Source: a virus
Lineage: Duplodnaviria > Caudoviricetes
Strand: one strand, 5' to 3'
IMG/VR virus record: IMGVR_UViG_3300030106_005551
Location: 6,887 to 70,886 of that record
Length of the DNA: 64,000 nt
Part shown: positions 17,701 to 56,847 of the stretch, piece by piece
Layout of the letters: each line of letters starts with the position of its first letter
Numbering within the stretch: the first letter of the stretch is position 1
Translations under genes and position numbers: made by a program
Notes under the pieces: model-generated
What the model saw: the letters and a program-made list of their open reading frames with translations, nothing else
What the model was told of the DNA's origin: nothing
Database searches by the model: none

Positions 17701-20700
17701 TCTGTTTAAAAACATAAAAAAGTCGCCAGCTATTAATTCATTAGGATTTACATCATTTAATTTTTTAGATCTTGATTGTTTATTTTTTAACCCTACAGCA
17801 TTATTAATAATACGTCTCATCATTCCTGAATGAACTGTAAAGTGAAATGTTTTTACACCTCTATCGTTTTTATTAAGCAATGCTAGTTGACTATAAATAT
17901 TATTATCAGGATGCATTATATCATTCTTATCAATAATTATTCCATCATTAATAATCTTTTCTACATTTTTAGCCCTATTGTGTAATCCATTTTCTTTATT
18001 AAATACACTAACTCCGTCCCCCTCTACATTATCTACCATTGATAAATAATTAATAGCTCTTGAGGCGACAAGCCCTTGTAAAAGTATAGTTCTTAATTCT
18101 GATTGTTTACCATGAATAAGTCCTTCTACAGGAAAGTTTACATAATCAGAAAACCCTTCTTTTTTATTTTTATACTTCATAAAAGATTCATACTTCATTT
18201 TTGGGCCAAACTTTGTTTTAGTATGCTCAAATAGTATGTTCCATAAAAACTGCCTTTCTCCTTTAAAAAGTATTGGTGTTTGTAATAATGCGTCTTTATT
18301 AATTAAACTACCCTTTGCGTTATCATCTAACAAAATATCTAAAACTTTATAAGCGGCATTATATCTATCGCTTCTATTTCTAGGATTTCTTTCAAAAAAT
18401 AATTCATTATATATAGCTGCAATTTGATTTGCTTTATCTTTATTTCCTTTAACGTCTTTAATAACGCTATCAATTACTCCTTGCTCTATTGTTGCGCTAG
18501 TACTTTCATATCTGTTCCAAAATCTTTTACCTTCATTTCCAATAGTTAAAACATTATGCGCCAGAACCTCTATGGTAATACCCTCAATAGGACCCTTAAT
18601 TTCCATTAGCTTAGCATTAGTAAGAGCCTTATCATTTTTATATACTCTATCTAATACGCTTAGCATTGCCATTATATTAGGGTTTTCAGAGCCCCTGAGC
18701 ATATTAATAAAATCATACGGATCATTTTGTGTGTCTTTTGCTAAAGACATAAGAGTAGCCAATAATTCTTTTGTTTTTATTTGATCGTCCTCTCTATAGT
18801 TATGCACTTCTACAATCTTTTTAATAAAATTAGTTGTAGTGGTTGGTAGCGCAATAGCTTTTGTTAAATCATCATATTTATCTACCTCATTAGTCATACC
18901 TTCAGACTCTCCAATTACATCATCAGTAGATTTTAAACTAATACCAATTTTGGCTAATTCGCCATCTAATATAATGTCTGCTTTTTTAAGATCTCCTGGT
19001 CGTTTTAACTGCGTTACAATAGCTGTAATATAATCTTTAGTATCTTTTATTAATTCATCTTTAATGTCTAAATTAGAATCATTAGCTATGGCCTCCATTA
19101 CTTTATCTGCTATTTGTTCAGGAGTTAAATTACGACCTATAAAATCTCCTATATAAGACGACACAGCAGCATATGAAGTAGGCTTTTGTAGCATTTTTTT
19201 ATTAGCCTTGTTAATAGGGCCATATCCAGAGTTCATCATATATGGCACGGTTCTATCAGCAGAATTAAAGTTAAGTAGTACAGTTTTAATTGCTGCTTCT
19301 AAATCTAATCCAGCTATATTTTCTACACTAAGATCTAATAATTTTCTAGCCTCTTCATCAGTGGCTAGCTTTTTACTTTCTTTATAAAACTCTATTAAAT
19401 CTTTTTCTAATTGTTTCTGAGCGGCAGAGCCTTTTACAACAGCGTCTACTGTTCCATAAGAATACGCTTCTAATGTTCTTGTAAATGTTTCTTCAAGTAA
19501 ATGCTTTTGTTGGTCTACCCTAACATCTTTGGCTCCATTAATTTTTAGTTGCGTTCTAAGAGATAAAAATAGTTCATTTATTCTAGTGCTGTCTCCTACT
19601 TTTTCAGCAGCAGCTATATTAGATGCAATGTCAATTAAATCACTTGTATACCTTGTCGTGTCAGTATTATTAATTATATTTCTATATATAGAGCCTAAAG
19701 TAGCCTTAACTCCTTTATAACTCATTAAAGTAAGCTCTGGGTAGTCTTGTTTAGTTTTTTGATATAATTCTGATTTAGGTAAAAGCTTTCTAATTTTTTT
19801 CATTAATGGTGTGTCTTCCATTAAACCATAATAGATATGTCCAGCTTCGTGTATTATATCTGATTGTGCTACTGAATCTATATTAATAAATACAGTAGAC
19901 CCTATAGCTAAAGATGAGGCTTCTTCACCATAATCAGTTAATAACTTTTCATAAGCTAAAACTCCTTTTGCACCAGGAAACTTTTTATTGACTATATCTT
20001 TAACTATAGATGTAGCTATAACACCAGAGCCGTATTTATATAAAGGTCTTATGTCTAATACTGTAGGCTCGTAATTAGGTATTTCTTTTTGGCTTTTTGT
20101 AAGAAACTTTTTAATTTTTTCTTTAGATTCTTTTACTGCTCCTATTAGCCTGTCTATTTTACGAGTATCTTTTTTCTTGGCTTTTTTTACAGGATCTTTG
20201 GCTTTAAAATCTCGTTGAGCTACCTTGCCTACTACTTCACCATTTATAACAACTTCTATTTCAGTTTCATATAAAAGGTTATCAAACTGAAAGTACAGCT
20301 TGCCATCCACCTCAACAACACCCTCTTGACCTTTAACTGGTTTTTTAAGACGTAATTCAACATTAGCATCTTCATCTAATACATACTTATCAGAAGTATT
20401 ATCAAAATCTCTGTACTGAATAGTTTCTCCCTCTGGAGTTTTAATAAAGTAATTAGGCCCCTTGCCTTTTTGTATGTCAGCTTTTTTTATCTGACGAGGA
20501 CCTTTTTCTAAGCTTTCTTCTGTAGTTTTATATTCCTTAGTTTTAGGAACTATTTGAGGTTGGTCTTTTTTTTTTACGTCTTCATCAGACTTTTTTTGTT
20601 TTCTTATAGCGCTTTCAATGTCTTTATTATTTATAGTTCCACCTCTGCCGCTACCTTTTATTTTTGTTGCCTCTTCTATAGATATAATACCATCTTCTAT

Positions 20701-28203: not shown

Positions 28204-31200
28204 TTAGTATGTTTTTCTATACTTTGCAAGTATTGCAAAGATATTAAATTTTTCTGTGGTTTTTGCACTATATTTTATTTTTGCATATGTACCTCTTGTT
28301 CTACGTGTACTTTTAGCTGTTCTAATAGGGGCCTTTAACACTCCGTCAATATATTTATCGGCTTGCAAACCTATTATTTCTATCCACTCCACGTGATACT
28401 CTTCAGAGCCATTACTTAAATCAATTCGTATCCTTTCTATAATACTTTCGTCCCATTTACTTGTACCTGCCATATCCCACTCAGCAATTACATAATCACT
28501 ATCTATACCTGTAGGAACATTTATTATTGATTGTCTTGACGGGCTTTCTCCAAGTCCAACAAAACTTCCTTTTTCTTTTTCTAAATATTCATAGCCTACC
28601 CAGCGCAACCTTCCAAGCCAATCACTAGTATTAGTCACCCTTTTAACTTTCATTCTTATTTTGTTATTATACTTACCATGTATATTTATTTCTAAACCTT
28701 TTCCTGGGCTTCTAAATTTATTACCTGCTTGTGTTACTAATTCTATACCATTAGTAGTTATTGGCGGGGCTATAGTTGCAGTTCCATCGTAGAACCACCA
28801 ACCATGTATTGCTTTAGTAAAATCCCATCTTCTATTAATAACTAATTGTTCTGTTTCGTCTAACAAATTACTTCTATAATTACCATCTTGATCTGGCAAA
28901 ATTGTTGTTGTCTTTATAGTATCGTGAGAAATATCAGTGGTGTAGTCAATAAAACTATAGTCTACATGTTTAGGGGTCATAACTACTTGCACATTATCAA
29001 AAACTTTACTTCTTGCTGCTTCAGAGTTTATAACTTTTACTATATAACTTTCGTCTGGCATTTCTATTGTTCCAGCAATTGCAATCTTTAAACCTGTAAT
29101 TGCATTTCCGTTATTGTCTAACTCTACCTGTCCAGACACAGAAGAAGTTATAGTACTAATTGTATAAAGATCATCTTTTTTGCCAAAAAAATGTGTCTTT
29201 TTATTGTCTTTATGTTTATCCCAAATCCATAAACTTAATGGATTGCATCTTCTTTTCCTATTAGCAACTGACGTTCCAAGAGCTGTGTTATTGTCAGAGG
29301 CCCCGTAATCATAGTATGGTATATTATAGTAATTTCCTTGTAGCCCGTCAATACGACTAAAGTTTGTTATAGCGTTAACACTTATTTCGTTTTCTGGACA
29401 TAGCATAAAAGAACCCTGACCTCCTGCAAGCCATTGTGGAGGAGCAACACTATACTTAGAAATAAACGCATTTACAGCCTCACTATACACTAATGTTTCT
29501 GATGTTCCTACTGGCTCTCCACTTCTAGTGCTTCCCATCAGGTGATTGTCTGATTTTCTAGAAAACTGTTGTCTATGATGATCTTTACTTTCCCAAGTAG
29601 AGTTATGAAATGTAACTAATAATTCTTTATTTTTATAATCATATATAGAGGTTATTCCTAAAAATCTTAAAGGATTGTCTGACAAATAATTTCTGTTGTC
29701 TGTAGGTTTTTCTAAACTATCTAACATTCCGTAATTTGTACCATGCACAACAGGTCCTGCTGCATGCACTCCACCCGCAGCACCTCCAGTCCCTGAAGTT
29801 GAAGTACACTCTCTGTATGCTCTTTGCTCCCACTCTTTTATTATGTATTTTAAATAATTTCTTTGTCCTAACGCATCGCCAAGAGATATTAATTTTTCTG
29901 TATCATATTTAAATAATCTACCAAAATTGCTATCAACAAAATAAAGAGACTTTTCACTCATAGCTACACTAAATCTATGTCTAGACCCGTATTTTGTTGA
30001 TATGTATATATGATTCTCTACAGTTTCTCCAGTACCAGTAAATAATGATGTACCAGCATCATCACTTAACATAGATAATGGATTTACAAGAAGTTTAGCA
30101 AAAGCGCTATCTTGCAATACATATATCTCATTTTTAAAGTTTACAATTCTATTTATTTCACCATAAAGACCTTCCATATCGTGAAATTGATTTATAGGAA
30201 ATTGTCTAAAAGCATCTGATTTTTGTCCTAATATTTTTGTATTAGAATATGCTATTTCATAAGGAAGGTTCAAGCTTTTTTGAAAAGTTTTTTCATCTAC
30301 CATTAATCCAGACTTCAAACTATTTTCTTGAGAATAAACGTTGTTATATAGCCAATCATTACTATATGGAGCTTGATTCATATCTTTACCTATTACAGTA
30401 TCTCCAGCATTTAAGGTTAATCCACTACGCATATCAGTATTTACATAAGATTCTACAGGGAATAATTGCCATCTTGAAGCAGAGTGCTTCATATATGGGC
30501 TAGATGTTTTCTGATGAGTATATAAATTAACAAAAGTATCTCCTCCGAACACTTGTGATACGTGACCTTGTGCTGTATTATTAGGATTAGAATCTCCTAC
30601 TGGATGAAAATTACCACAAGGTATATATCTTGTTTTTTCTATTGACCCCTTGCTATATCCACCATATGCAACTACATTTCTTACTATAGAGCACAAATAT
30701 TTAAAAGGAACTAAATCTTTAGATCCAGAATAGTGTATTTTTAAATCGCCTCCGCTATCATGGTTGTCAGTTGAAATAACATTATTGTCCCAATAACGCG
30801 TTAACCACCCTGAATTAAAAGGGTAGGAAACATAACCATTGTATGGAGTATTATTTCCGCCTGACGGATATTGATTCCCATCACTCTCTATTCCGCCCCA
30901 AAAACCATGCTCATATAATGCGGACCAGTTTTGTGGTGAAAACCAGGCATCATATTTTCTATTAGAAGCAGTCATATTATTATAATTAGCAGCAAAATCA
31001 GTGGCGTCATCAGCCGACCCATTTTTTCTTACAACATGCACCCTATTATCTATTTCAATTAAAATACTTCTTAACCCCATTTGCATTGTTGAAACTGTAT
31101 CATAATTATAATCCTCTTGCTCAAGATTAGTTTGCTCTCCATCTGCTGCTGTTTTCCCTTTTAAAAAAACTTGATCTGCGGCAACAGCATCAAAAACCCT

Positions 31201-34200
31201 AAAAACTTGACCTGAGTCTTCGTGTTTTCCTTCGTTGCAAACTCCTAATGTATTGTTAGAAAAACCTGAAATTTCACCACGATCTACCCTTCGGTTGTGT
31301 TTAAAAAATCCACTAGGAACTATTTCTCCATCAGACAATTCTTTTGAATTTGCTATAGGTAGTTGCCATCCGTATTCACTATTTGGTCTCCAGCCCGCAT
31401 TACCACCACCACCGCCTATAAACTTTCCGCCATCTATTTCCATCCCTATACCGATGTAAGGATCGTAAGAGCAAAATTTTCCTATAAGAGCTCTGTAATA
31501 TCTGTCTATAGTTTTGCTAGTGCAAAATTGTAATGCTTGGTACAGCGATTTATTAGTACCATATGGTTGCCAGAGCTCAACGTGACTATTTTCTGACCAA
31601 TCCACAGGCTCACTACCAGAATAAGTTTTTACCTCTGTATTACAATTAGAGTAAAATGAAAAAGGATTTCCCGTTGAGCGATCATTAAATCTACCCTCAT
31701 CTGTTAACTTTAAACAATCGTCTATTCTTAACATATCACCTTCTCTGTAAACATAAGGTCTAATACCAAAAGCACTATCTGGCGCGTCTAATGTAAACAC
31801 ACTTCCGCTACACTCATATCTTGGTGTATAGCCATATCTTACGGAGGGAGTATTGTTAGATGTTGCTCCAACCCTACCTATATCATACTCTCCTGTCCCC
31901 CCAAAACCTACATTCCTTGTTGCATAAGAGGTTGTCTTGTCATAACTTCCAAAATATCCACAATGTCTCTTGTGGAGTCCGTATGTTCCTGGGCCCCCAA
32001 AAGAATAGCCAGCGTTGTCCCCTCGGCCCCTAGCATGCCCTGATCCATTTGAAACATTAGCGACATATTGCCATTTTTTCATATCCTCTCTTTCTGGCCA
32101 ATAGAAAACTTTACCAGCAGAATTTCCTCCCGTTGTTACTTCTCCATCTGATGTGCTATCTTCGTGAAAGGCCATAAAAGAGTGTTCTGCCAATCCTAAA
32201 TAACCATTTAAATAAGTATTGTATTCTGGTTGTTCTGGAAGGGTTGGATCAACACCACCAGTTGGATCATTATATTGATTTACAAAAACTGGGTCTCCGT
32301 CAAAAGCCTCGTTGTCTTTTTGGCAAAATCTTGCCGCTCCATAACCATATTTTTGACCTAACTTTGCGCTTCCATATTGTACTGTTTGATTTAACAAGCC
32401 CTGATGCACAACTCTTTTATCCTCTTCTGTTCTTTGAGCCCTAACAACTCTAAATCCAGATATTTTTTTACAAACACTATCAGGTATTATAAATTCAAAT
32501 GAAACATAAAGGTCAAACAAATAATAAATATCATCGTGATTGGTTATATCCGCTCCTCCCCTACTTTCTAGGTATGCAGGAACGGCTCTTACCTGCCCGC
32601 CTGCATGCGAGTAATCAGTTCCAGTTGTTCCAGGAAGGTCGTCTCTTTGCGCTCCATCACTTTTAATATATGCGTTTAAATTTTGTCCTACTCCCGTAGT
32701 AGTTGTTCTTTGCGTAAACCACTCTACATCTACTGGAGGAACTGTATGTCCATATGCAAATGCCAATCTAAAATCTTTTATAAATTTATGAGCAACTATA
32801 CAATCAGTATCTGTCCCGCTACTATTGTCTAAAGCATTCCAACTAGAACCACCCCCGTCTGTTGTTGGTCTAAAAGGGGTGTAATCTAATCCATTTGTAG
32901 AATTTTCATTTTTAATGTCTATCATTCTGTTTACATCATATTGATGTGGAGTTTCAATATCTCCTATCCACAAAACATTACCAGGAGCTCCATTTAAATC
33001 ATATATCTGAACGCCAAATCTATATACATCTCCCCTTTGATAGCCTCTAAGATTTCCAGCTAAATGAGGATCTTTTGAGCCTCCCAAAGACATAGATGTT
33101 CTAAATTTTGTCTCTCCTGATGCTCCGTCAAAAACACTATCACTTTCTACATCGGCAAATTCTGTTTGTACTTCATCTGATAAGTTTGTAGAAGACACAA
33201 AAGGAGAAGACCAGGCATTTTTAGACTGATCTCCTATTTTTTCTTGAACTCCAAAAGATACACGGCAGCCTCCTAGTCCATTTGTAGCGTAATTAAAACT
33301 TTCTGCCCCCACAGTCATTTTGTCTGATAAATATTTATATAAAAAATGTGTTTGATACCAAGTTTTTGCAGCAGCCCCATATCCCGCTCTTTGATTTGAA
33401 AGAGCAGTTGTCCACATTGGAATGTTTTTTGTGTCGTTATAATTAATAAAATCATACGTATTAGACGCTTCGTACATGCTATTGGGAACCCCTAACAATT
33501 GGCCATGACCCACTTTATAGCCAAACTCATCTTGTACAGAATAATCATATGCAATATCATTTATAGAAACGGGATCTCCGTTACTATCTAACTGATAATG
33601 CTTTACTTCTATATCGTTAGTTGTTAGCATTGCGTCTAAACGATTTGCTGCGCTATTAGCAAGTCTATATCTTAAAACTTTTACGTTCCACTCTTGTTCT
33701 GATATAAAGTTTCTTTTTTGCCTTAAGTTAGCAGCAAATAAAATATTATCTTTAATTGCAATATCTTTACAGACATCAAATGTATTGCTTTCTATTAATA
33801 TTTCTTCTAAACCATTTTCTACTTCGTTGTTCCAGTTTGTATGTTGAAAATTGCTTGAAAGACCACTTATTTGATTCCTAGCTACAACAGCAACTCTTGG
33901 AGGGGCGTTGTTATCTTCGTAAAATAAAGCGTATAGCTCTACATAAGCAAAATTTTGATCTATATCTTTTACGTCTATCTGAAATCCTTGTGTTCCTATA
34001 TTTCCTTTTGGACCACCCGCATATAAGGTTGAATTTCCAAAAGCTTGATCAGAAACATGATACATATTACTTAATGGCGCAAATGTTGATTCTCCTCCAT
34101 TTTCAGATATATATTTATAAGTATACTGATAAACCCCTACTGGCAAAGATCCAGATAAAGTACTTGCAAGTGTAGCTTGTGACGGATTCATAAGGGGGGT

Positions 34201-34941
34201 AATATCTAAAGAGTTTTGATTTATTAAATCTAACCTATCTTGTTTTATATTTAGCGTTCTTAATGGATTTTTATTATCTGTCCAATAAACTCTAGAAATA
34301 ACATCATTTTCTACTATATGCTCCATTCTTATTGGAGTGTCTAAATCCATATTTAAATTAGGATATTGTGCCTGCGCAGGATTTCCTTGATTGTAACAAA
34401 CTCTTAAATCTGAAACTTTTTTTACTTTAAATTCATGATCAAAGTCTACTAATAAAAAAATAGTTCTATCTATTTCTGTATTTTCTATAGAACTTCCGTC
34501 TGTTGAAGATATTGGATTTTGATTATTTCTATCCCACTCAAATCTTCCCACTATAACAAGCAATAATTGATTGGCATATGAAACATGACCTACAATAGAG
34601 CACCTGTTAGACAGCTCTTGATTGTTTGATATACTTATATTATCAGGACCTCTATCATAAAAAGTTTTATAATCTGCATATGTAGTACCGCCCCCCTCGC
34701 CTTCATTTACACTTATAGGAAATGATGCCAAATTAACAAACAAACTGTTTCCTTCTATGTTTTCTACAGTAAATGTATCTCCTTCTGAATTTGTAAGTCT
34801 AATATTTTGTGCGTCAGCATAACTTCCACTTAGTTGAAAATGTGGATCCAAATCGCTAACCATTCCATGCGTGAAACTTTCTGGTTTTGATACACCTTTT
34901 TGTTGTTGAGCACCTTGTTGTCCTCTATTCTTTTTTGCCAT
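28204..34941 (-). CDS. Tail stabilisation/muzzle-like protein, 2245 aa
   Basis: N-terminal SFTHGMVSDLD..YADAQNIRL; YQYTYKY, DIAIKDNILFAANL, YQRGDVYRFG, FGGDTFV, ETLVYSE; C-terminal RTRGTYAKIKY. These resemble the crAss-like tail stabilisation protein. Confidence 0.75.
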   Translation of the reverse strand: MAKKNRGQQGAQQQKGVSKPESFTHGMVSDLDPHFQLSGSYADAQNIRLTNSEGDTFTVENIEGNSLFVNLASFPISVNEGEGGGTTYADYKTFYDRGPDNISISNNQELSNRCSIVGHVSYANQLLLVIVGRFEWDRNNQNPISSTDGSSIENTEIDRTIFLLVDFDHEFKVKKVSDLRVCYNQGNPAQAQYPNLNMDLDTPIRMEHIVENDVISRVYWTDNKNPLRTLNIKQDRLDLINQNSLDITPLMNPSQATLASTLSGSLPVGVYQYTYKYISENGGESTFAPLSNMYHVSDQAFGNSTLYAGGPKGNIGTQGFQIDVKDIDQNFAYVELYALFYEDNNAPPRVAVVARNQISGLSSNFQHTNWNNEVENGLEEILIESNTFDVCKDIAIKDNILFAANLRQKRNFISEQEWNVKVLRYRLANSAANRLDAMLTTNDIEVKHYQLDSNGDPVSINDIAYDYSVQDEFGYKVGHGQLLGVPNSMYEASNTYDFINYNDTKNIPMWTTALSNQRAGYGAAAKTWYQTHFLYKYLSDKMTVGAESFNYATNGLGGCRVSFGVQEKIGDQSKNAWSSPFVSSTNLSDEVQTEFADVESDSVFDGASGETKFRTSMSLGGSKDPHLAGNLRGYQRGDVYRFGVQIYDLNGAPGNVLWIGDIETPHQYDVNRMIDIKNENSTNGLDYTPFRPTTDGGGSSWNALDNSSGTDTDCIVAHKFIKDFRLAFAYGHTVPPVDVEWFTQRTTTTGVGQNLNAYIKSDGAQRDDLPGTTGTDYSHAGGQVRAVPAYLESRGGADITNHDDIYYLFDLYVSFEFIIPDSVCKKISGFRVVRAQRTEEDKRVVHQGLLNQTVQYGSAKLGQKYGYGAARFCQKDNEAFDGDPVFVNQYNDPTGGVDPTLPEQPEYNTYLNGYLGLAEHSFMAFHEDSTSDGEVTTGGNSAGKVFYWPEREDMKKWQYVANVSNGSGHARGRGDNAGYSFGGPGTYGLHKRHCGYFGSYDKTTSYATRNVGFGGTGEYDIGRVGATSNNTPSVRYGYTPRYECSGSVFTLDAPDSAFGIRPYVYREGDMLRIDDCLKLTDEGRFNDRSTGNPFSFYSNCNTEVKTYSGSEPVDWSENSHVELWQPYGTNKSLYQALQFCTSKTIDRYYRALIGKFCSYDPYIGIGMEIDGGKFIGGGGGNAGWRPNSEYGWQLPIANSKELSDGEIVPSGFFKHNRRVDRGEISGFSNNTLGVCNEGKHEDSGQVFRVFDAVAADQVFLKGKTAADGEQTNLEQEDYNYDTVSTMQMGLRSILIEIDNRVHVVRKNGSADDATDFAANYNNMTASNRKYDAWFSPQNWSALYEHGFWGGIESDGNQYPSGGNNTPYNGYVSYPFNSGWLTRYWDNNVISTDNHDSGGDLKIHYSGSKDLVPFKYLCSIVRNVVAYGGYSKGSIEKTRYIPCGNFHPVGDSNPNNTAQGHVSQVFGGDTFVNLYTHQKTSSPYMKHSASRWQLFPVESYVNTDMRSGLTLNAGDTVIGKDMNQAPYSNDWLYNNVYSQENSLKSGLMVDEKTFQKSLNLPYEIAYSNTKILGQKSDAFRQFPINQFHDMEGLYGEINRIVNFKNEIYVLQDSAFAKLLVNPLSMLSDDAGTSLFTGTGETVENHIYISTKYGSRHRFSVAMSEKSLYFVDSNFGRLFKYDTEKLISLGDALGQRNYLKYIIKEWEQRAYRECTSTSGTGGAAGGVHAAGPVVHGTNYGMLDSLEKPTDNRNYLSDNPLRFLGITSIYDYKNKELLVTFHNSTWESKDHHRQQFSRKSDNHLMGSTRSGEPVGTSETLVYSEAVNAFISKYSVAPPQWLAGGQGSFMLCPENEISVNAITNFSRIDGLQGNYYNIPYYDYGASDNNTALGTSVANRKRRCNPLSLWIWDKHKDNKKTHFFGKKDDLYTISTITSSVSGQVELDNNGNAITGLKIAIAGTIEMPDESYIVKVINSEAARSKVFDNVQVVMTPKHVDYSFIDYTTDISHDTIKTTTILPDQDGNYRSNLLDETEQLVINRRWDFTKAIHGWWFYDGTATIAPPITTNGIELVTQAGNKFRSPGKGLEINIHGKYNNKIRMKVKRVTNTSDWLGRLRWVGYEYLEKEKGSFVGLGESPSRQSIINVPTGIDSDYVIAEWDMAGTSKWDESIIERIRIDLSNGSEEYHVEWIEIIGLQADKYIDGVLKAPIRTAKSTRRTRGTYAKIKYSAKTTEKFNIFAILAKYRKTY

Positions 34942-51278: not shown

Positions 51279-51389
51279 TAAAAAAAATTTTTTATTTTTC
51301 TGAGGGAGGGATACTATATGCTTAAACCCCCCGTTGCATTTCAAAACTTTGGATACCCTACCCTATTTTTTAGATTCTCAATTCTTTTA

Positions 51390-51404
51390 CAACTTAATTA
51401 TAGA
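51390..51404 (+). promoter_or_regulatory. Early-region motif copy 1 (CAACTTAATTATAGA)
   Basis: 14/15 identical to copies 2 and 3; precedes the first plus-strand ORF. Confidence 0.55.
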
Positions 51405-51434
51405 CAATATAATTATTAATTTAAATTACTTATT

Positions 51435-51590
51435 ATGGACTATATACTATGGTTATTCTTACTATTCATTGGAATGTTTGCTAAATGCTTGGGTGCTTTG
51501 TTAGCATTTGGTGTAGCTTATTACATTTACAAAACCTATGCAGATAAACTAATTGATAAGGCAGATAAAATAATAAAGGGAGACAAATAG
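51435..51590 (+). CDS. Small membrane protein, 51 aa, first early gene (not in track)
   Basis: MDYILWLFLLFIGMFAKCLGALLAFGVAYYIYKTYADKLIDKADKIIKGDK; followed by a terminator. Confidence 0.7.
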   Translation: MDYILWLFLLFIGMFAKCLGALLAFGVAYYIYKTYADKLIDKADKIIKGDK

Positions 51591-51603
51591 TCTCTCTTTT
51601 TTT
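51578..51603 (+). terminator. Intrinsic terminator
   Basis: GGGAGAC-AAATA-GTCTCTC followed by T7. Confidence 0.75.
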
Positions 51604-51906
51604 CAATTTAGTATAAAATATGCGTATTGAAGTGTCAGTGTGATATAATCTATAACCCTTAATAATCACCCTTATAATAGCTATAATAACAGTATAATTA
51701 CTCTAAGTTATTGATAATCAATCAGTTATTGTTTATTTATCATTTATTACTAATGTATAATATATGTTCTAATATATTTAGATGATTAATAATAATAACT
51801 AACTAATGAGTTGGCGAAGTTATACATTTTATTTGACATTGTCAAGCGTTTAGCAGTTTTTTTATTCAACTATAATTGCTTATAATATTTAGCTGACTAA
51901 TTTTTT

Positions 51907-51921
51907 CAACTTAATAATAGA
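51907..51921 (+). promoter_or_regulatory. Early-region motif copy 2 (CAACTTAATAATAGA)
   Basis: 51901-51921 is identical over 21 nt to 52402-52422. Confidence 0.6.
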
Positions 51922-51925
51922 TAAC

Positions 51926-52005
51926 AAGAATAGAGTACAAGAGTGTGCGCGCTCTCCTCGTGGAAAGGTATATACATCATAGGTTTACCCTCTGTTCTTT
52001 TTTTT
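51926..52005 (+). ncRNA. Candidate small structured RNA
   Basis: AAGAATAGAG/CTCTGTTCTT end stem, inner AGAGTG/CGCTCT hairpin, T-tract; no ORF. Confidence 0.45.
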
Positions 52006-52027
52006 ATTAACTTAAATCAAAACTATT

Positions 52028-52288
52028 ATGAAAACTATAGGAATCAATTGCTCTTGTGGCAATACAGAAGGCTTTCAGCTTTCAAGTACAGCAGCTGAAT
52101 GCACAAGCTGTACAACATTACATACAATTACAGATGAGCCTGTGTTCATCACTCGTAACATTACACCTTTACACGTAATAGAACAACGTGCTAAAGAGCA
52201 AGCAGTAATAGATATGTGGCTAGATGATCAGCCATTTATTGACTGGTCTACTTGCTTTGATATAAATAACATAAGAGTGGCAGTTTAG
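52028..52288 (+). CDS. Small Zn-ribbon-like protein
   Basis: CSCG...CTSC. Confidence 0.65.
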   Translation: MKTIGINCSCGNTEGFQLSSTAAECTSCTTLHTITDEPVFITRNITPLHVIEQRAKEQAVIDMWLDDQPFIDWSTCFDINNIRVAV

Positions 52289-52299
52289 TCACTCTTTTT
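52273..52299 (+). terminator. Intrinsic terminator
   Basis: AAGAGTGGC-AGTTTA-GTCACTCTT followed by TTT. Confidence 0.7.
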
Positions 52300-52301
52300 A
52301 T

Positions 52302-52309
52302 TATCTTTG
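52302..52309 (+). promoter_or_regulatory. Bacteroidota -7 promoter box TATCTTTG
   Basis: Directly after a terminator and before a non-coding hairpin unit. Confidence 0.6.
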
Positions 52310-52317
52310 CAAACTTT

Positions 52318-52407
52318 TATAGAATGTTCCTCAGTGCTAATCTATATTGTCGTTAATTCTCTATTTAGCATTCTATACATAACGGGGCTTAGCACAGCCC
52401 CTTTTTT
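52318..52407 (+). ncRNA. Candidate ~90-nt sRNA with its own terminator
   Basis: TATAGAAT/ATTCTATA and GCTAA/TTAGC stems; GGGGCT/AGCCCC plus T6 terminator at 52384-52407. Confidence 0.45.
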
Positions 52408-52422
52408 CAACTTAATAATAGA
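52408..52422 (+). promoter_or_regulatory. Early-region motif copy 3 (CAACTTAATAATAGA)
   Basis: Identical to copy 2. Confidence 0.6.
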
Positions 52423-52605
52423 ATAGCGAACGTAGTATTGCAAGCTATCCTCTTTTCAGTAGTGGTGAAAGATCCAAACTCTAGATATTGCCCGTAAAGC
52501 ATATTGATAATGAGGCTTTAAACCATAGGGCTGATTAACTCGCATGAAATTGCCTATGAAATAACGCGGAGTACTCAATAGAGAGAGGTATACTATTCTT
52601 TTTTT
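52421..52605 (+). ncRNA. Candidate ~180-nt structured RNA
   Basis: End pairing, inner hairpins, a possible T-loop and H-type pseudoknot, T7 end; no ORF. Confidence 0.5.
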
Positions 52606-52619
52606 AACTTAAAAATAAC
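52605..52619 (+). promoter_or_regulatory. Early-region motif copy 4 (TAACTTAAAAATAAC)
   Basis: Degenerate copy before the ATG at 52650. Confidence 0.4.
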
Positions 52620-52649
52620 TAATCTAATATTAATCAAAACAATTAAATC

Positions 52650-53018
52650 ATGTCAGAAAACAAAAACACATTAGCAAAAGGTATGTTCGTTAGAGAGCAT
52701 ACATTTGATTCAGGAACTAAAATTCTTAATGTATCTATCAATGTAGCAGATTTTTGCTCATTCGTTAAAGATAATATGAATACAGATTCTAATGGTAATC
52801 AATGGGTTAACCTAAAATTAATCCCTAACAAAAATGTAGGAGACAATAAACTATCTCATACGCCTATTCTTAATGATTACACTCCTAAAAATGCAGACAG
52901 AGCTTTAGATGCATTAGCAGAAGTGCTTAAGCCTAGCGTTGAGGAGAGAGAAATAATAGAAACTCCTACAAAGAAAACTAGAAAGAAAGCAACTAAAAAG
53001 GCTGATCTGCCATTCTAA
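52650..53018 (+). CDS. Early SSB-like protein with C-terminal DLPF
   Basis: Beta-rich OB-like N-terminus, flexible tail ending KADLPF. Confidence 0.55.
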   Translation: MSENKNTLAKGMFVREHTFDSGTKILNVSINVADFCSFVKDNMNTDSNGNQWVNLKLIPNKNVGDNKLSHTPILNDYTPKNADRALDALAEVLKPSVEEREIIETPTKKTRKKATKKADLPF

Positions 53019-53248
53019 TGAGCATTCTAGGAATAGCATTCTTCGCTGCCATAGGTTATTATATCATAGTATATAAAGCCTTGGGCAGACGGAGACTAGT
53101 AAAAACTCAGACATTCTGGGATATATTATTTACATTATTACTACCATTATTATTTATTGGTACATTTAGTGGTCTAGCCACTGCTGTTATTGCAGGAGTA
53201 TTATTCTCTATCTTTACGGCAATGACTCCGTCACCTGACGAGCCATAA
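53018..53248 (+). CDS. Small multi-TM membrane protein
   Basis: Three hydrophobic segments. Confidence 0.7.
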   Translation: MSILGIAFFAAIGYYIIVYKALGRRRLVKTQTFWDILFTLLLPLLFIGTFSGLATAVIAGVLFSIFTAMTPSPDEP

Positions 53249-53252
53249 AAAT

Positions 53253-53277
53253 AAAGAGCCCTAGTGGCTCTTTTTTT
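53253..53277 (+). terminator. Intrinsic terminator
   Basis: GAGCC-CTAGT-GGCTC followed by T7. Confidence 0.75.
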
Positions 53278-53292
53278 CTACTTATTTATAAC
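53278..53292 (+). promoter_or_regulatory. Early-region motif copy 5 (CTACTTATTTATAAC)
   Basis: Immediately after the terminator, before the ATG at 53311. Confidence 0.5.
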
Positions 53293-53310
53293 TAATCAAA
53301 TACTTTTACT

Positions 53311-53694
53311 ATGAAAAAAGAAATCTATGAAATCTCATCACAATATATGAAAGATTTAAAAAAATTATTGAAAAACAAAAAAATATCACAGTATGATATA
53401 GCCCATCAGTCATTTAGAAAAAACAATGCTGATTGGATTATTAAACATGTGAATAAAGCAAAGCTTACAATTACATATCTTAATGGAGACGTAAGAGTAC
53501 TCCCTACATATAATGAGCTTATGCGTAGAGTTAGCTGGAGTAATAACGATTACAAATCAGCTAGACGTAGATTTATTAAAAGATATTATAGAATAGTTAA
53601 TGCTTTTACTAAACATAAAAATAGATTTAAAAGAAATACGATAGCCAACAAACTTAATCCACAACAGATTAAACAGTTAGCTTCGCAAATATAA
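53311..53694 (+). CDS. Basic hypothetical protein
   Basis: ORF track. Confidence 0.65.
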   Translation: MKKEIYEISSQYMKDLKKLLKNKKISQYDIAHQSFRKNNADWIIKHVNKAKLTITYLNGDVRVLPTYNELMRRVSWSNNDYKSARRRFIKRYYRIVNAFTKHKNRFKRNTIANKLNPQQIKQLASQI

Positions 53695-53932
53695 TGATAA
53701 GGTTATTAATGTAATATACCCTGGACCCTTATCATAGAGTCAGGTCGGGCAACTATTTGTAGAATTAATAAAATTCATAATTAAAGTGTTCTAATTGCAG
53801 ATAAACTTTAAACATAGCAAGTTGGCGTAAAACGTTCCTGACTCTAAACATAAGAAAGGAGGTTAGTAATTTAATTTTAATAACTCAGCGGTTATACTTT
53901 GTGTGTTGATTACAACTCCTCCTTTCTTTTTA
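53694..53932 (+). ncRNA. Candidate ~240-nt three-domain structured RNA
   Basis: Three perfect 9-11 bp long-range helices with nested hairpins in an ORF-free gap. Confidence 0.55.
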
Positions 53933-53951
53933 TTAATTAAAAACTAAAACA

Positions 53952-54200
53952 ATGAAAGCAAAAAAAATAGGAAAAAACCTTACAAAATCATATAGTGAAT
54001 GGAAAGAATATGTTAGCGATAGTTTAAAACAATCTAAACTTAAAAAAGAAGTTCCTAAAACTATAAATAAATTAAAAGATACTCTAAGTAAATTTGATGA
54101 CAAATTCTTAGGTAAATACAATTATTTTCTTGATGTAAAATATTTAAGAAAAAAAACAGAAGAAATATATAATCGTAGTAAAAGTCTTATAAATAAATAA
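53952..54200 (+). CDS. Lys-rich hypothetical protein
   Basis: ORF track. Confidence 0.6.
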   Translation: MKAKKIGKNLTKSYSEWKEYVSDSLKQSKLKKEVPKTINKLKDTLSKFDDKFLGKYNYFLDVKYLRKKTEEIYNRSKSLINK

Positions 54201-54202
54201 TT

Positions 54203-54451
54203 ATGGAAACTAATACAATTTCATTTAATGTTAGCAAAACTATTAACATCGGTAACTTTGAAGCTATTAAAATTAATTATGGTCAAAGCATTACAGTAGA
54301 CCCTACAAGACCTATTGAAGAGCAAAGACAAGAATTAATACAAGAATGCTATGCTACTGTTAAAAAAGAAACAGCATTATGGACGTTAAAACACGTGCAA
54401 CACGTTGATAGCAAAAAAAATACAACAATTTATAAAAGTAAAATAAAATGA
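54203..54451 (+). CDS. Conserved phage hypothetical protein
   Basis: SKTINIGNFEAIKIN pattern. Confidence 0.65.
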   Translation: METNTISFNVSKTINIGNFEAIKINYGQSITVDPTRPIEEQRQELIQECYATVKKETALWTLKHVQHVDSKKNTTIYKSKIK

Positions 54452-54723
54452 AAAAAGAAAAATATAATTGGCAAAGAAGTAAAGCAGACATAGAAAAATA
54501 CTGGACAGATTTAGTATCTAAAAATCTAGTCGGTAAAACTATAACAAAAGTTGAATATGTTGATGATGAAGAAGTAGAAGACAATATGTGGTATAAAAAA
54601 CCAATAGCAATACAATTAGACGGTAAGCACTGGTTAATTCCTATGTCAGACGATGAAGGTAATGACGGAGGCGCAATATCAACTACTTTTAAAGATTTAA
54701 AAACAATACCAGTAATATTTTGA
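54448..54723 (+). CDS. Hypothetical protein
   Basis: LVGKTITKVEY..PMSDDEGNDGGAI. Confidence 0.7.
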   Translation: MKKEKYNWQRSKADIEKYWTDLVSKNLVGKTITKVEYVDDEEVEDNMWYKKPIAIQLDGKHWLIPMSDDEGNDGGAISTTFKDLKTIPVIF

Positions 54724-54983
54724 AATCATATTTACTTAAAAAACTTATAGCAGGCTACAAGCTTCATCCTAAACATTCTGGATTTGATCTTGTAGCTCTG
54801 CCTTATAAGTATACTAACGAAAAAATACTTGTTAGATATAGTGACAAGAAAATGATAATAGATCAAGATACTCCACTGCTTGGAAAACAAACGTTTCCAG
54901 ATAAGTTTGGCAGAGATAAAACATATACTCTTTACTATTATCAATGGCAACCTATTAAAAATCAAATAAAATTAGAACTATGA
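54720..54983 (+). CDS. Hypothetical protein
   Basis: ORF track; overlaps its neighbours. Confidence 0.6.
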   Translation: MKSYLLKKLIAGYKLHPKHSGFDLVALPYKYTNEKILVRYSDKKMIIDQDTPLLGKQTFPDKFGRDKTYTLYYYQWQPIKNQIKLEL

Positions 54984-55249
54984 CAGCATTAGATGTAGAA
55001 AAATACATATGCAAAACATATGGAAAAGAAGCATTAAAACACGATCCACATGCATTAGCAGAAGCAATAAATCAAACACAACAGGATATGGATTATTCTG
55101 ACGAGTGGCATTTATTTCATTTATTAATTGAAAACAGGCCAATACCATCTTTGTATACACATAGTTATGGGTTTCATACAGCAAATGGTAGAGGTATAAT
55201 AGAAAGAATTAAAAGTTATTATTATGAAAACATATCAAGTAGCAATTAA
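54980..55249 (+). CDS. Hypothetical protein
   Basis: ORF track. Confidence 0.6.
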   Translation: MTALDVEKYICKTYGKEALKHDPHALAEAINQTQQDMDYSDEWHLFHLLIENRPIPSLYTHSYGFHTANGRGIIERIKSYYYENISSSN

Positions 55250-55430
55250 CAGAACATATACAACATATATTACATTAAAATTTCCAAATGATGGTAGAAA
55301 TCATATGGACATTATTAGTGAAAAAATAAACAAAGGCGATCAAGACATATGGGATTTAATAGCTGAAAAAGAGCTAGAACAAATGGAAACTAGTAATGAA
55401 GACTGGGAAATATCAGAATTAACAAAATAA
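55224..55430 (+). CDS. Hypothetical protein
   Basis: ORF track. Confidence 0.6.
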   Translation: MKTYQVAINRTYTTYITLKFPNDGRNHMDIISEKINKGDQDIWDLIAEKELEQMETSNEDWEISELTK

Positions 55431-55441
55431 AATAAATAATT

Positions 55442-55927
55442 ATGGGAACAAGAAGTTTAACTTACATAGAAGAATCATGGGAAACTGCGGTTGCCGATGA
55501 AGAAAATAATAACAAAGTACATAAAACAACACAAAACATACTTTGTATGTATCGTCAGTATGATGGCTACATGAGTGGTCATGGTGCAGAACTTGCTGAG
55601 TTTTTGCAAGACTTTAATATCGTTAATGGTATGAAGCTAAATGATCCACCACGCACTGCAAACGGCATGGGGTGTTTAGCAGCACAATTAATTGTACATT
55701 TTAAAGCAAGCGCATGTAAAGATGATGGCACGCCAACGTCTGAACCAGGCGGTATATATGTATATCATCCTGAAGCTAAAGATTATGGTGAAGAATTTAC
55801 TTATACTATTTATACAAAAGGCAAAGGAAATATATATATTCGTGCTTATGATGTATGGGCAGAAAAAGTTATATTTGATGGTACTCCAGAAGAATTATTA
55901 ACTAAATTAAAATTAGATTATGCTTAA
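55442..55927 (+). CDS. Conserved phage early protein of unknown function
   Basis: MGTRS..YRQYDGY..G.ELAEFL..ANGMGCLAAQL pattern. Confidence 0.7.
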   Translation: MGTRSLTYIEESWETAVADEENNNKVHKTTQNILCMYRQYDGYMSGHGAELAEFLQDFNIVNGMKLNDPPRTANGMGCLAAQLIVHFKASACKDDGTPTSEPGGIYVYHPEAKDYGEEFTYTIYTKGKGNIYIRAYDVWAEKVIFDGTPEELLTKLKLDYA

Positions 55928-56789
55928 TACAGAACAAATTTTAGAACAAAATGGACTTAACTGGAATGTAGTTAAAAAGCCATTAATATATGCAGGCGAA
56001 TGTACGCCTGAAGCAAATAATGGATTACATCACACTCCATATTATGGCATAGTAAGAGAAGATACAGGTGAAGTATTTACTACAGTATCAGAAAGTTATG
56101 AGCCTACACAAAATCATACAATTATTGAAACTATGCAAGAGATTGCAGAAGATAATGAATTAGATATTGTAAAAGCCATACCATTACATGGGGGTAGAAA
56201 AGTTGTAGTTCAAATGAAACGTCCTGATAATATAAATGTTATTGGAGGGGAAACAACAGAAGAGTATATTTATGCAATTAATGGACATGATGGTAGTTCT
56301 TCATTAAAATTTGGCTTTATGAATAAAGTAATATTTTGTCAAAATCAATTTGCATGGTTATCAGGTAATGCTTTTTCTGGCTATAGACATACAAAATCTA
56401 TACAAAATAAAGTAAAACAATTGCCTAAAATAATTAACTTTACAGATCAGTATGATAAAATTGCTGATTTAAAAGATTTTGCTGAACAATCTGCTTCACC
56501 AAGCCTTATAATTGATTTAGTTAATTATTTATTTAACACAGACAGATTAGCAAAAGATGAGGATATTTCTTCTAAAAAGTATAATATGATACATGACATA
56601 ACAACATGTATAGATGCTGAAATGAGTAGAATATCACATACTAAATGGGGTGTTTTTAATGGTGTTACAAAATATACTACACATAAAAAATCATCTCCTA
56701 ATAGAAAAAACGGACAACAAGAGTCTATACTAACAGGATCTTGTGGTAAAATGAATGAAAAAGCTTTTAAGTTTTTAAAAGCATACTAA
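55920..56789 (+). CDS. DUF932/DUF945 (TIGR03299-like) phage/plasmid protein
   Basis: GLNWNVVKKP, YEPTQN, INGHDGSSS, IFCQNQ, RHT, TKWGVFNGVT. Confidence 0.85.
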   Translation: MLNTEQILEQNGLNWNVVKKPLIYAGECTPEANNGLHHTPYYGIVREDTGEVFTTVSESYEPTQNHTIIETMQEIAEDNELDIVKAIPLHGGRKVVVQMKRPDNINVIGGETTEEYIYAINGHDGSSSLKFGFMNKVIFCQNQFAWLSGNAFSGYRHTKSIQNKVKQLPKIINFTDQYDKIADLKDFAEQSASPSLIIDLVNYLFNTDRLAKDEDISSKKYNMIHDITTCIDAEMSRISHTKWGVFNGVTKYTTHKKSSPNRKNGQQESILTGSCGKMNEKAFKFLKAY

Positions 56790-56798
56790 TAGAAGCGA

Positions 56799-56819
56799 GG
56801 GGGTTAACACCCCCTTTTT
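56799..56819 (+). terminator. Intrinsic terminator
   Basis: GGGGG-TTAACA-CCCCC followed by T5. Confidence 0.75.
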
Positions 56820-56834
56820 CTACTTATTAATAAC
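56820..56834 (+). promoter_or_regulatory. Early-region motif copy 6 (CTACTTATTAATAAC)
   Basis: Immediately after the terminator, before the ATG at 56848. Confidence 0.5.
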
Positions 56835-56847
56835 TAAAAAATAAAAT

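What the first reader, a model, noticed from the sequence alone, without database searches (positions are those of the whole stretch)
53694..53932. Large three-domain structured RNA in an intergenic gap
Seen: helix A ATGATAAGG/CCTTATCAT (53694-702/53727-35); helix B AGAGTCAGG/CCTGACTCT (53736-44/53837-45) enclosing CAACT/AGTTG, GAATT/AATTC and TTAAAGT/ACTTTAA; helix C AAGAAAGGAGG/CCTCCTTTCTT (53852-62/53918-28) enclosing GTAAT/ATTAC and ATAAC/GTTAT, then a T-run. Bulged CCC-TG-GAC (53719-26) could pair with GTCGGG (53744-49). A and B stack with no spacer. I do not recognise the family. It is the strongest new-RNA candidate in the window.
Basis: partly seen in the sequence, partly recalled or inferred. 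Interest (0 to 1): 0.76.

Follow-up and report, generated by a model that had tools for sequence, protein, structure and literature searches.

The report
Modular structured RNA cassettes, marine phage
The gap holds three separately folding RNA hairpin modules, and the last one belongs to a large undescribed family of optional, once-per-genome structured RNA cassettes in marine phages, so it is a real new RNA motif but not one three-domain molecule.

Summary
All three helices are present exactly as written. The region folds better than shuffles (z -3.1), and no Rfam family matches. Comparison with relatives changes the interpretation.

- **Domain C (53852-53928 plus a U-run)** is the local copy of a ~75-105 nt motif found in more than 120 IMG/VR contigs. 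P1 and P2 covary strongly and the core is conserved (GGUUA..AUAAY-loop-GUUAUACUUUGUG..AAUUCC).
- **Setting of C.** It is always intergenic and points the same way as the flanking genes. G.U pairs outnumber A.C 58 to 17 on the sense strand. 75% of copies are followed by a U-run.
- **Copy number and hosts.** C occurs exactly once in 13 of 13 carrier genomes. Carriers include crAss-like phages and an unrelated ~30 kb phage group.
- **C is optional.** It is absent from five near-complete close relatives of the ~30 kb group, whose equivalent gene junction is empty or holds another module.
- **Domains A and B** occur only in a few close relatives. B is 95% identical where the neighbouring gene is 65% identical, and its substitutions preserve pairing. 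Relatives show other combinations, such as type II-B-C and A-B-X-C.

Best reading: a string of optional, hairpin-closed structured RNA cassettes forming the tail of an early transcript, with C also acting as its terminator. Function and expression are unproven.

The parts
53253..53295 (+). Plain hairpin plus T-run, followed by the repeated early-region motif (TTTTTCTACTTATTTATAACTAA). This is the likely start of the transcription unit that ends in A-B-C. Context only.
   Evidence: Terminator-like site 53253-53273. Direct-repeat family D1/D7 with copies at 51902, 52600, 53273 and 56815.
53311..53694 (+). Upstream ORF of 127 aa with a basic C-terminus and no Pfam or PHROG family. Its stop codon (53692-53694) overlaps the first base of helix A.
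   Evidence: Homologues in L002-L011 are each followed by a different array of modules.
53694..53735 (+). Module A: a 9-bp closing helix (53694-702/53727-35) around a 24-nt loop.
   Evidence: Found only in L073/L099 and L054. L073 carries a compensatory change (ATGATGAGG/CCTCATCAT).
53736..53845 (+). Module B: a 9-bp closing helix (53736-44/53837-45) enclosing CAACT/AGTTG and two inner hairpins (GAATT/AATTC and TTAAAGT/ACTTTAA).
   Evidence: Fold z -2.9. It is 94.5-95.5% identical in L073, L054 and L011, where the adjacent ORF is 64-68% identical. Eight of 10 variable columns lie in predicted pairs and all keep pairing: 2 double changes and 4 wobble changes that fit the + strand only. A 65-nt short form in L376 lacks the inner hairpins.
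53852..53928 (+). Module C, a member of the widespread family. P1 is 53852-62/53918-28, P2 is 53866-70/53909-13, and P3 is 53880-84/53891-95 with loop 53885-90. The conserved J3/2 ACUUUGUG is at 53896-53903.
   Evidence: Model R1 scores 90.9 bits, E 1.9e-17, as the only hit in the window. This sequence was in the seed alignment.
53926..53934 (+). U-rich tract directly after P1 (TTTTTATT). Together with P1 it has the form of an intrinsic terminator.
   Evidence: 70 of 93 family members have at least 5 T in 8 nt at this place.
53952..54200 (+). Downstream ORF of 82 aa, the first of a block of small genes that runs to 56789 with no further hairpin/T-run or repeat-motif copy in between.
56797..56837 (+). 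Plain terminator hairpin plus motif copy. Context: at the equivalent gene junction the relative L073 carries a 'type II' structured module instead.
   Evidence: (window) compared (L073 5230-5300, minus strand).

Best explanation
The gap holds three adjacent, independently folding, hairpin-closed RNA cassettes on the sense strand. They are most likely transcribed as the untranslated tail of the early gene 53311-53694. Cassette C is one copy of a previously undescribed structured RNA family. That family is an optional accessory of marine phages: it is present once per genome or not at all, and it sits between whatever two genes it happens to lie between. Its purine-rich/pyrimidine-rich closing helix followed by a U-run most likely stops transcription. 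The folded core would then sit at the 3' end of a nuclease-resistant RNA. The conserved core (GGUUA, AUAAY-loop-GUUAUACUUUGUG, AAUUCC) is inferred to be the functional part, probably a binding platform or decoy for a host or phage factor. A and B are lineage-specific cassettes of the same general design placed upstream of C. Shown here: the structure, its conservation, the strand that folds, the copy number and the patchy distribution. Inferred: transcription, termination and the binding role.
For: - **Structure.** On 92 distinct sequences, 92.3% of cells pair against 79.0% in shuffles and 40-59% with slid partners. There are 306 double-change cells against 92.5 in shuffles. All 16 pairs of P1 and P2 vary, and 15 of them show a change on both sides.
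- **Conserved core under two independent search patterns.** One pattern was the 16-mer in P3/J3-2. The other used the P2 flanks only. Each set conserves the part it was not selected for.
- **Sense-strand folding.** G.U/U.G pairs number 58 against 17 A.C/C.A in P1 plus P2.
- **Position.** In 83 contexts the motif is always intergenic and co-directional. Where the adjacent gene was found, it mostly starts just after the upstream stop codon and mostly ends about 15-25 nt before the next ATG.
- **U-run.** Present in 70 of 93 members.
- **Copy number.** One copy in each of 13 carrier genomes.
- **Host range.** Carriers include crAss-like phages (5 of 5 carry PF23898) and ~30 kb genomes without that capsid (0 of 5).
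- **Accessory status.** Of the 80 closest loci of one flanking gene, 18 have C directly after the stop. A few have other modules or a small hairpin, and most have only a ~25 nt spacer. Five near-complete genomes with the empty site have no C anywhere at E<=1, while the same search finds it in five sister genomes.
- **Interchange with plain terminators.** L073 has a type II module where the window has a plain terminator.
- **A and B.** Compensatory and wobble changes are seen, and B is 95% identical next to a 65%-identical ORF.
- **Precedent.** The marine crAss-like phage phi14:2 transcribes long intergenic early-region RNAs of unknown function at high level (bioRxiv 10.1101/2020.03.07.982082, read).
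Against: - There is no expression evidence for this region.
- About 25% of family members lack a U-run, so termination cannot be the conserved function.
- A 55-nt structured interior is atypical for an intrinsic terminator.
- If C terminates efficiently, the ten genes from 53952 to 56789 have no recognised promoter. Filled junctions in relatives bring no room for one either.
- P3 is almost invariant, so its pairing rests on C-G / U.G / U-A alternation at one position only.
- No binding partner is known.
- The high identity of B could reflect recent horizontal transfer rather than selection.
Confidence: 0.5

Rival explanations
1. Cis-regulatory attenuator. C would be a protein- or ligand-responsive terminator (riboswitch-like, with the sensing domain embedded in the terminator stem) that sets read-through into the downstream gene block.
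For: The conservation pattern resembles an aptamer: conserved junction nucleotides, variable-length hairpins and optional extra stems. P1 plus a U-run is present in 75% of members. In the window no promoter-like motif or other terminator lies between C and 56797, so downstream genes would depend on read-through. A terminator-embedded aptamer has precedent in the HMP-PP riboswitch (PMC6478431, seen).
Against: The same gene pairs work without the element in most close relatives. Downstream genes are diverse, including a flap-nuclease-like gene, an MKITGKLVKKL-type gene, HNH and several unknowns. A quarter of members have no U-run. No alternative antiterminator pairing was found. Different unrelated modules occupy the same site.
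Confidence: 0.12
2. Selfish or mobile RNA/DNA cassette, possibly carrying a new self-cleaving ribozyme, that spreads between phage genomes and inserts between genes without benefit to the phage.
For: Presence/absence differs between close relatives at one junction. Many different insertion sites are used. The motif occurs in two unrelated phage groups. Frame sequences recur around different cores (ATAGGTTGG ... CCTTCCTTTTT). B is 95% identical beside diverged genes.
Against: There is a single copy per genome. No target-site duplication is visible when empty and filled sites are compared. No terminal repeats exist beyond the stem itself, and no associated transposase or endonuclease recurs. Long-term covariation with a conserved core points to selection on the RNA. 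No Rfam ribozyme matches.
Confidence: 0.15
3. One integrated three-domain RNA, in which A, B and C fold together through stacking and an A-loop/B pseudoknot and act as a unit.
For: The A-B-C order is kept in the window, L073/L099 and L054. A and B abut with no spacer. The proposed pseudoknot is partly maintained in L073.
Against: C occurs alone in more than 100 contigs. B and C occur with a different first module (L011, L376). L054 has an extra hairpin between B and C. L376 has a truncated B.
Confidence: 0.08
4. DNA-level hairpin element: a single-stranded DNA structure serving as a promoter for the virion RNA polymerase (as in phage N4), as a priming site, or as an origin.
For: The crAss-like virion polymerase gp66 transcribes single-stranded but not double-stranded DNA in vitro, and no common early promoter motif was found in phi14:2. 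The element is single-copy and lies in the early/replication region.
Against: The wobble bias favours the sense strand, not the template strand. A U-run follows the stem as in RNA terminators. The stems are long with structured interiors, unlike the N4 promoter hairpins of 5-7 bp with a 3-nt loop (my own knowledge). The element is dispensable in close relatives. It also occurs in ~30 kb phages that lack a crAss-type capsid.
Confidence: 0.05
5. Ordinary intrinsic terminators whose interiors are neutral filler, with no specific RNA function.
For: Plain hairpin/T-run terminators punctuate the same early region. One such site is occupied by a structured module in a relative.
Against: The interior of C is conserved in sequence across two phage groups and more than 120 contigs, with covarying P2. 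C is single-copy. A quarter of members lack the U-run.
Confidence: 0.05

Closest known systems
Phage 'morons': accessory cassettes inserted between conserved genes, typically ending in a terminator (my own knowledge of the concept from lambdoid phage genomics).
   Same: C, and other modules, are present or absent between the same two neighbouring genes in close relatives. They end in a hairpin plus T-run and are dispensable.
   Different: The cassette encodes a ~75-105 nt structured RNA rather than a protein. No promoter of its own was found. The terminator stem is the closing helix of the RNA itself.
Early long non-coding RNAs of the Cellulophaga crAss-like phage phi14:2 (bioRxiv 10.1101/2020.03.07.982082).
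   Same: Both are non-coding stretches between early genes of a marine crAss-like phage. In phi14:2 they are transcribed from the earliest time point at higher level than most genes, and their function is unknown. The non-coding stretches are visible in the record.
   Different: There is no sequence or structure homology. Model R1 finds nothing in the whole phi14:2 genome. The phi14:2 regions are 0.7 and 1.7 kb long, against 0.24 kb here. Expression of the window's region is unknown.
Terminator-embedded aptamer of the HMP-PP (thiS) riboswitch (PMC6478431).
   Same: In both, a conserved RNA domain sits inside a stem that is followed by a U-run.
   Different: The riboswitch has a consistent gene association and a known ligand. 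C has neither, is optional, and lacks the U-run in 25% of members.
RNase III processing hairpins between phage T7 early genes (my own knowledge).
   Same: Both are intergenic, sense-strand, irregular long hairpins in an early polycistronic region that would leave a protective structure at the 3' end of the upstream message.
   Different: T7 sites are present at several junctions per genome and are constant within the species. C is single-copy, optional, and has a conserved three-helix core. Cleavage was not tested.
Rfam families, including RAGATH-7 (RF03159).
   Same: There is only a weak chance-level similarity of a C-plus-M4 stretch in relative L007: 25.7 bits, E 0.08.
   Different: The gathering score is 111.8 bits. 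Nothing matches in the window at E<=10.

Membership tests
Any Rfam 15 family | Covariance-model score at or above the family's gathering threshold | tested here: not met
   No hits in the whole window at gathering score. None at E<=10 on 53400-54200. In seven relatives only three chance-level hits at E 0.08-0.6.
New family defined here (model R1, 'module C') | P1-P2-P3 architecture with the conserved GGUUA / AUAAY-loop-GUUAUACUUUGUG / AAUUCC core | tested here: met
   Window 53848-53941 scores 90.9 bits, E 1.9e-17, but this sequence was in the seed. 93 independent hits in relatives score 35-103 bits.
New family defined here (model R1, 'module C') | Base pairs supported by covariation | tested here: met
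   All P1 and P2 pairs vary, and 15 of 16 show a change on both sides. The covariation score is 0.435 against 0.186 for shuffles and 0.08-0.135 for slid partners. P3 is inconclusive because it is nearly invariant.
Intrinsic (factor-independent) terminator | Stable G+C-containing stem immediately followed by a U-tract on the transcribed strand | tested here: met
   P1 is 11 bp with 5 G-C pairs, followed by TTTTTATT. 70 of 93 family members have a T-rich tract.
Intrinsic (factor-independent) terminator | Short apical loop (3-8 nt) in a simple hairpin | tested here: not met
   The interior is 55 nt with two further helices. The terminator scan did not list it.
Intrinsic (factor-independent) terminator | RNA 3' ends at the U-tract | not testable with these tools
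   Only assembled contigs of one RNA run could be laid, and they do not cover the region.
Riboswitch | Consistent association with genes of one pathway | tested here: not met
   Downstream genes differ widely. The same junction is empty in most close relatives.
Riboswitch | Ligand binding and an alternative expression-platform fold | not testable with these tools
   No competing conserved pairing was noticed by eye. Binding needs in-line probing.
Known self-cleaving ribozymes (hammerhead, twister, twister-sister, pistol, hatchet, HDV-like, hairpin) | Match to the family's model, and site-specific cleavage | tested here: not met
   No Rfam match. Cleavage itself cannot be tested here.
N4-type hairpin promoter for a virion RNA polymerase | 5-7 bp stem with a 3-nt loop formed on the template strand (my own knowledge) | tested here: not met
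   Stems are 9-17 bp with long interiors. The wobble bias of 58 to 17 favours the non-template (sense) strand.
tRNA / tmRNA | Cloverleaf recognised by ARAGORN | tested here: not met
   No genes found in the window.
Phage moron (accessory cassette) | Present or absent between the same conserved neighbours in close relatives | tested here: met
   18 of 80 loci have C at the junction, and most have only a spacer. Five near-complete genomes of that group lack C altogether, whereas five sister genomes have one copy. This was shown for the ~30 kb phage group. For the window's own clade the evidence is the varying module sets in L002-L011.
Phage moron (accessory cassette) | Own promoter | tested here: inconclusive
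   No room for a promoter and no motif were seen at filled junctions. Promoters of these hosts and phages are not covered by the scan.

The most novel reading that the evidence does not exclude
Marine phages of at least two unrelated groups may exchange a repertoire of small, hairpin-framed structured-RNA cassettes (C, type II, M3, M4, B and others). Each would be kept once per genome and could be swapped at gene junctions. C would then be a new functional RNA class: for example a decoy against a host defence or RNA-binding factor, a factor-responsive terminator, or a new self-cleaving ribozyme. Together the cassettes would form an RNA counterpart of protein-coding morons.
Probability: 0.2. 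Interest if true: 0.85.

Novelty: new variant of a known kind. Interest (0 to 1): 0.66.

Why it matters
Structured non-coding RNAs of phages that infect marine Bacteroidota-type hosts are almost unknown. The abundant early non-coding RNAs of phi14:2 still have no assigned function.

This work gives a family with more than 90 distinct sequences, clear covariation, a defined core, a defined strand and a presence/absence pattern. That is enough to design probing, termination, cleavage and pull-down experiments. It also allows a test of whether carriage correlates with host defence systems.

The work also shows that several different structured modules share one frame and replace each other, or plain terminators, at the same junctions. 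This hints at a general way in which phages acquire and shuffle RNA functions. For annotation, it warns that 'long structured intergenic RNAs' in these phages may be strings of independent cassettes.

Tried and rejected
- **GenBank phages.** blastn of the region (401 nt) gave no match. The 65-nt core at E<=10 gave only chance hits. The best, in Thiohalocapsa phage LS06-2018-MD03, lies inside a gene on the other strand and is not found by R1. No cultured phage with the motif was found.
- **Bacterial and archaeal genomes.** The 16-mer hit 122 places, none with the P3 context, which is chance level for that database size.
- **Gapped pattern for B in viral contigs.** It returned essentially chance hits; blastn found B only in L011, L054 and L073/L099.
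- **Sequencing runs.** One metatranscriptome (X15) held 11% of the words. When laid, its contigs cover 52665-52897 and short bits beyond 53956, but not A-B-C, so nothing can be concluded about expression. Summed DNA depth peaks over C because other phages share it.
- **Trans target.** The complement of the conserved GUUAUACUUUGUG occurs nowhere else in the window.
- **phi14:2.** No C motif.
- **Literature.** Searches for crAss-like non-coding RNAs and for the core sequence found nothing beyond the phi14:2 paper.
- **Neighbouring proteins.** No informative Pfam or PHROG family.
- **Readings dropped along the way.**
  - 'Generic terminator', because C is single-copy.
  - 'Essential cis element such as an origin or the early/middle switch', because C is absent from complete close relatives.
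  - 'crAss-specific motif', because C also occurs in ~30 kb phages without a crAss capsid.
  - 'Host-type promoter inside C', because the variable spacing and the covariation do not fit one.

Full report
**The observation**

The minimum-energy fold of 53685-53945 reproduces the three domains (-56.4 kcal/mol; z -3.13 against dinucleotide shuffles). Folded separately, A is unremarkable (z -1.1), while B (z -2.9) and C (z -3.45) stand out.

The gap lies between two plus-strand ORFs, 53311-53694 and 53952-54200. It has no ORF of 30 aa or more and no tRNA. It has no Rfam match at gathering score or at E<=10.

**Setting**

The window is 64 kb of a 70.9 kb IMG/VR virus record. The genome encodes a crAss-type capsid and muzzle protein and a P22-like portal, so it is a small marine crAss-like phage.

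Genes switch strand near 51.3 kb. The plus-strand region that follows is a run of short units, each a plain hairpin plus T-run followed by a repeated motif. The unit that starts at 53273 contains the 127-aa ORF and then A-B-C.

**Relatives show a modular array**

Nine IMG/VR loci encode homologues of the 127-aa ORF. The DNA after that gene differs from locus to locus:

| Locus | Modules after the 127-aa gene |
|---|---|
| window, L073/L099 | A-B-C |
| L054 | A-B-extra hairpin-C |
| L011, L376 | 'type II' module-B-C (B in L376 is a 65-nt short form) |
| L008, L009 | another module-C |
| L003 | four other modules, no C |
| L006 | a single type II module |

Many modules share a frame (AGGUUGG ... 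CCUUCCUUUUU) whose stem contains tandem U.U mismatches.

In L073 a type II module sits exactly where the window has a plain terminator (56797-56816). The domains are therefore separable cassettes, not parts of one fold.

**Module C is a large family**

- **Collection.** The 16-mer AGCGGTTATACTTTGT found 105 IMG/VR stretches. About nine are chance matches in coding DNA, and the rest all have the same architecture. A second pattern that uses only the P2 flanks found 95 stretches, including 31 further distinct members without the 16-mer.
- **Model.** Covariance model R1 aligned 93 hits, 92 of them distinct.
- **Pairing statistics.**
  - 92.3% of cells pair, against 79.0% in shuffles and 40-59% with slid partners.
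  - There are 306 double-change cells against 92.5 in shuffles.
  - Every pair of P1 and P2 varies, and 15 of 16 change on both sides.
- **P3.** It is nearly invariant (AUAA/UUAU). Its top pair alternates between C-G (65), U.G (23) and U-A (3), so its pairing is plausible but not proven.
- **Loops and insertions.** The P3 loop varies in sequence and length. Some members carry an extra hairpin in J2/3, and some carry a 70-90 nt insertion after J3/2.
- **Conserved core.** It consists of GGUUA at the P1/P2 junction, AUAAY ... GUUAUACUUUGUG, and AAUUCC.

**Strand, position and U-run**

- G.U/U.G pairs outnumber A.C/C.A 58 to 17 in P1 plus P2, so the sense strand is the one that folds.
- In 83 contexts the motif is intergenic and co-directional with both neighbours.
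- Where an adjacent ORF was found, it mostly begins just after the upstream stop codon and mostly ends about 15-25 nt before the next start codon.
- 70 of 93 members are followed by a T-rich tract. The rest, which belong to particular lineages with longer P1 stems, are not.

**Copy number and distribution**

- R1 finds exactly one copy in each of 13 carrier genomes.
- Five large carriers (84-90 kb) have a crAss-type capsid.
- Five carriers of 29-30.5 kb, 95-100% complete, do not have that capsid. The family therefore spans at least two phage groups.
- Nothing convincing turned up in bacterial genomes or in GenBank phages. phi14:2 lacks it.

**C is optional**

I took one gene that often precedes C (128 aa, ending ...EDESEDFKK) and fetched its 80 closest loci.

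- C follows the stop codon in 18 of them.
- A few have other framed modules (for example M4 in L483 and L493) or a small hairpin.
- Most have only a ~25 nt AT-rich spacer before the next gene.
- Five near-complete genomes with the empty junction have no C anywhere at E<=1. The same search finds it in five sister genomes.

C is thus neither an essential cis element nor a generic terminator. It behaves like an accessory cassette.

**Modules A and B**

Both occur only in the window's closest relatives.

- **Conservation of B.** It is 94.5-95.5% identical between phages whose adjacent ORF is 64-68% identical at the nucleotide level.
- **Substitutions in B.** Eight of its ten variable columns lie in predicted pairs and all preserve pairing. 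Two are full compensations. Four are wobble changes that would be mismatches on the other strand.
- **Substitution in A.** It has one compensatory change in L073.

With so few sequences this is suggestive rather than statistical. Recent transfer could also explain the high identity of B.

**Mechanism**

Shown here:
- a sense-strand structure under selection;
- a conserved core;
- single-copy, optional and patchy carriage;
- positional equivalence with plain terminators.

Inferred:
- The cassettes are transcribed as the tail of the upstream early message.
- C's closing helix and U-run end the transcript.
- The resulting structured 3' RNA is stable, and its core binds some factor.

The phi14:2 study reports abundant, persistent early intergenic RNAs of unknown function in a related marine phage. 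This makes expression plausible but does not demonstrate it here.

Points against a simple terminator role:
- a quarter of members lack a U-run;
- the interior is large;
- no promoter is recognisable for the genes downstream of C.

The rival readings are scored separately. They are a responsive attenuator, a selfish or ribozyme-bearing mobile element, one integrated three-domain RNA, a DNA-level hairpin element, and neutral filler.

**Verdict**

- Module C defines a previously undescribed family with strong comparative support.
- Function and expression are open.

Noticed in passing
L003 1580-1870; L007 2900-3160; L483 and L493 just after position 1880-1910; L073 5230-5300 (minus strand): At least three further framed module families occur in relatives. 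Type II has the core GGAAUGAUAAC..GCGGUUAU and was found in 17 IMG/VR stretches. M3 is another. M4 has the core CUUAACGAA..UACGGUAAACUAG. All have covarying closing stems and a trailing T-run, and each looks like a separate undescribed RNA motif.
   Followed up: partly
window 53692-53714: The stop codon of the 127-aa ORF overlaps an ATG (TAATG) that opens a 6-codon mini-ORF (MIRLLM*) inside helix A. L073 has MMRLLL* and L054 has a 19-codon frame. This is probably chance.
   Followed up: partly
window 52665-52897: A 233-nt contig of a marine metatranscriptome run (X15) is identical to part of ORF 52650-53018. This is weak evidence that this phage, or a near-identical one, was transcriptionally active in that sample; DNA carry-over is not excluded.
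   Followed up: no
window 51384-53295 and 56815-56837: A repeated motif (TTTTT-YWACTTAWWWATAR) follows plain hairpin/T-run sites six times on the plus strand. Some relatives have it directly after C's T-run (L008, L009).
   Followed up: partly
window 11725-22995 (minus strand): The 3756-aa ORF has no Pfam match at E<=0.01, whereas the 2245-aa ORF (28204-34941) matches the crAss muzzle protein.
   Followed up: no
L022, L053, L111 (about 24 nt downstream of C): In one lineage C lies immediately upstream of an HNH-type endonuclease gene (MKINYRKLYEKKYGKIPNKWEVHHIDFNHN...). This may be relevant to mobility of the cassette or may be coincidental.
   Followed up: no
L007 3045-3210: A weak Rfam hit to RAGATH-7 (25.7 bits against a gathering score of 111.8; E 0.08) spans the end of C and an M4 module. 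It is not a member.
   Followed up: partly
L116 (phi14:2) 1279-1983 and 2905-4601: The long non-coding early regions of phi14:2 are visible in the RefSeq record as stretches from which earlier ORF calls were removed. They were not examined for modular hairpin structure.
   Followed up: no
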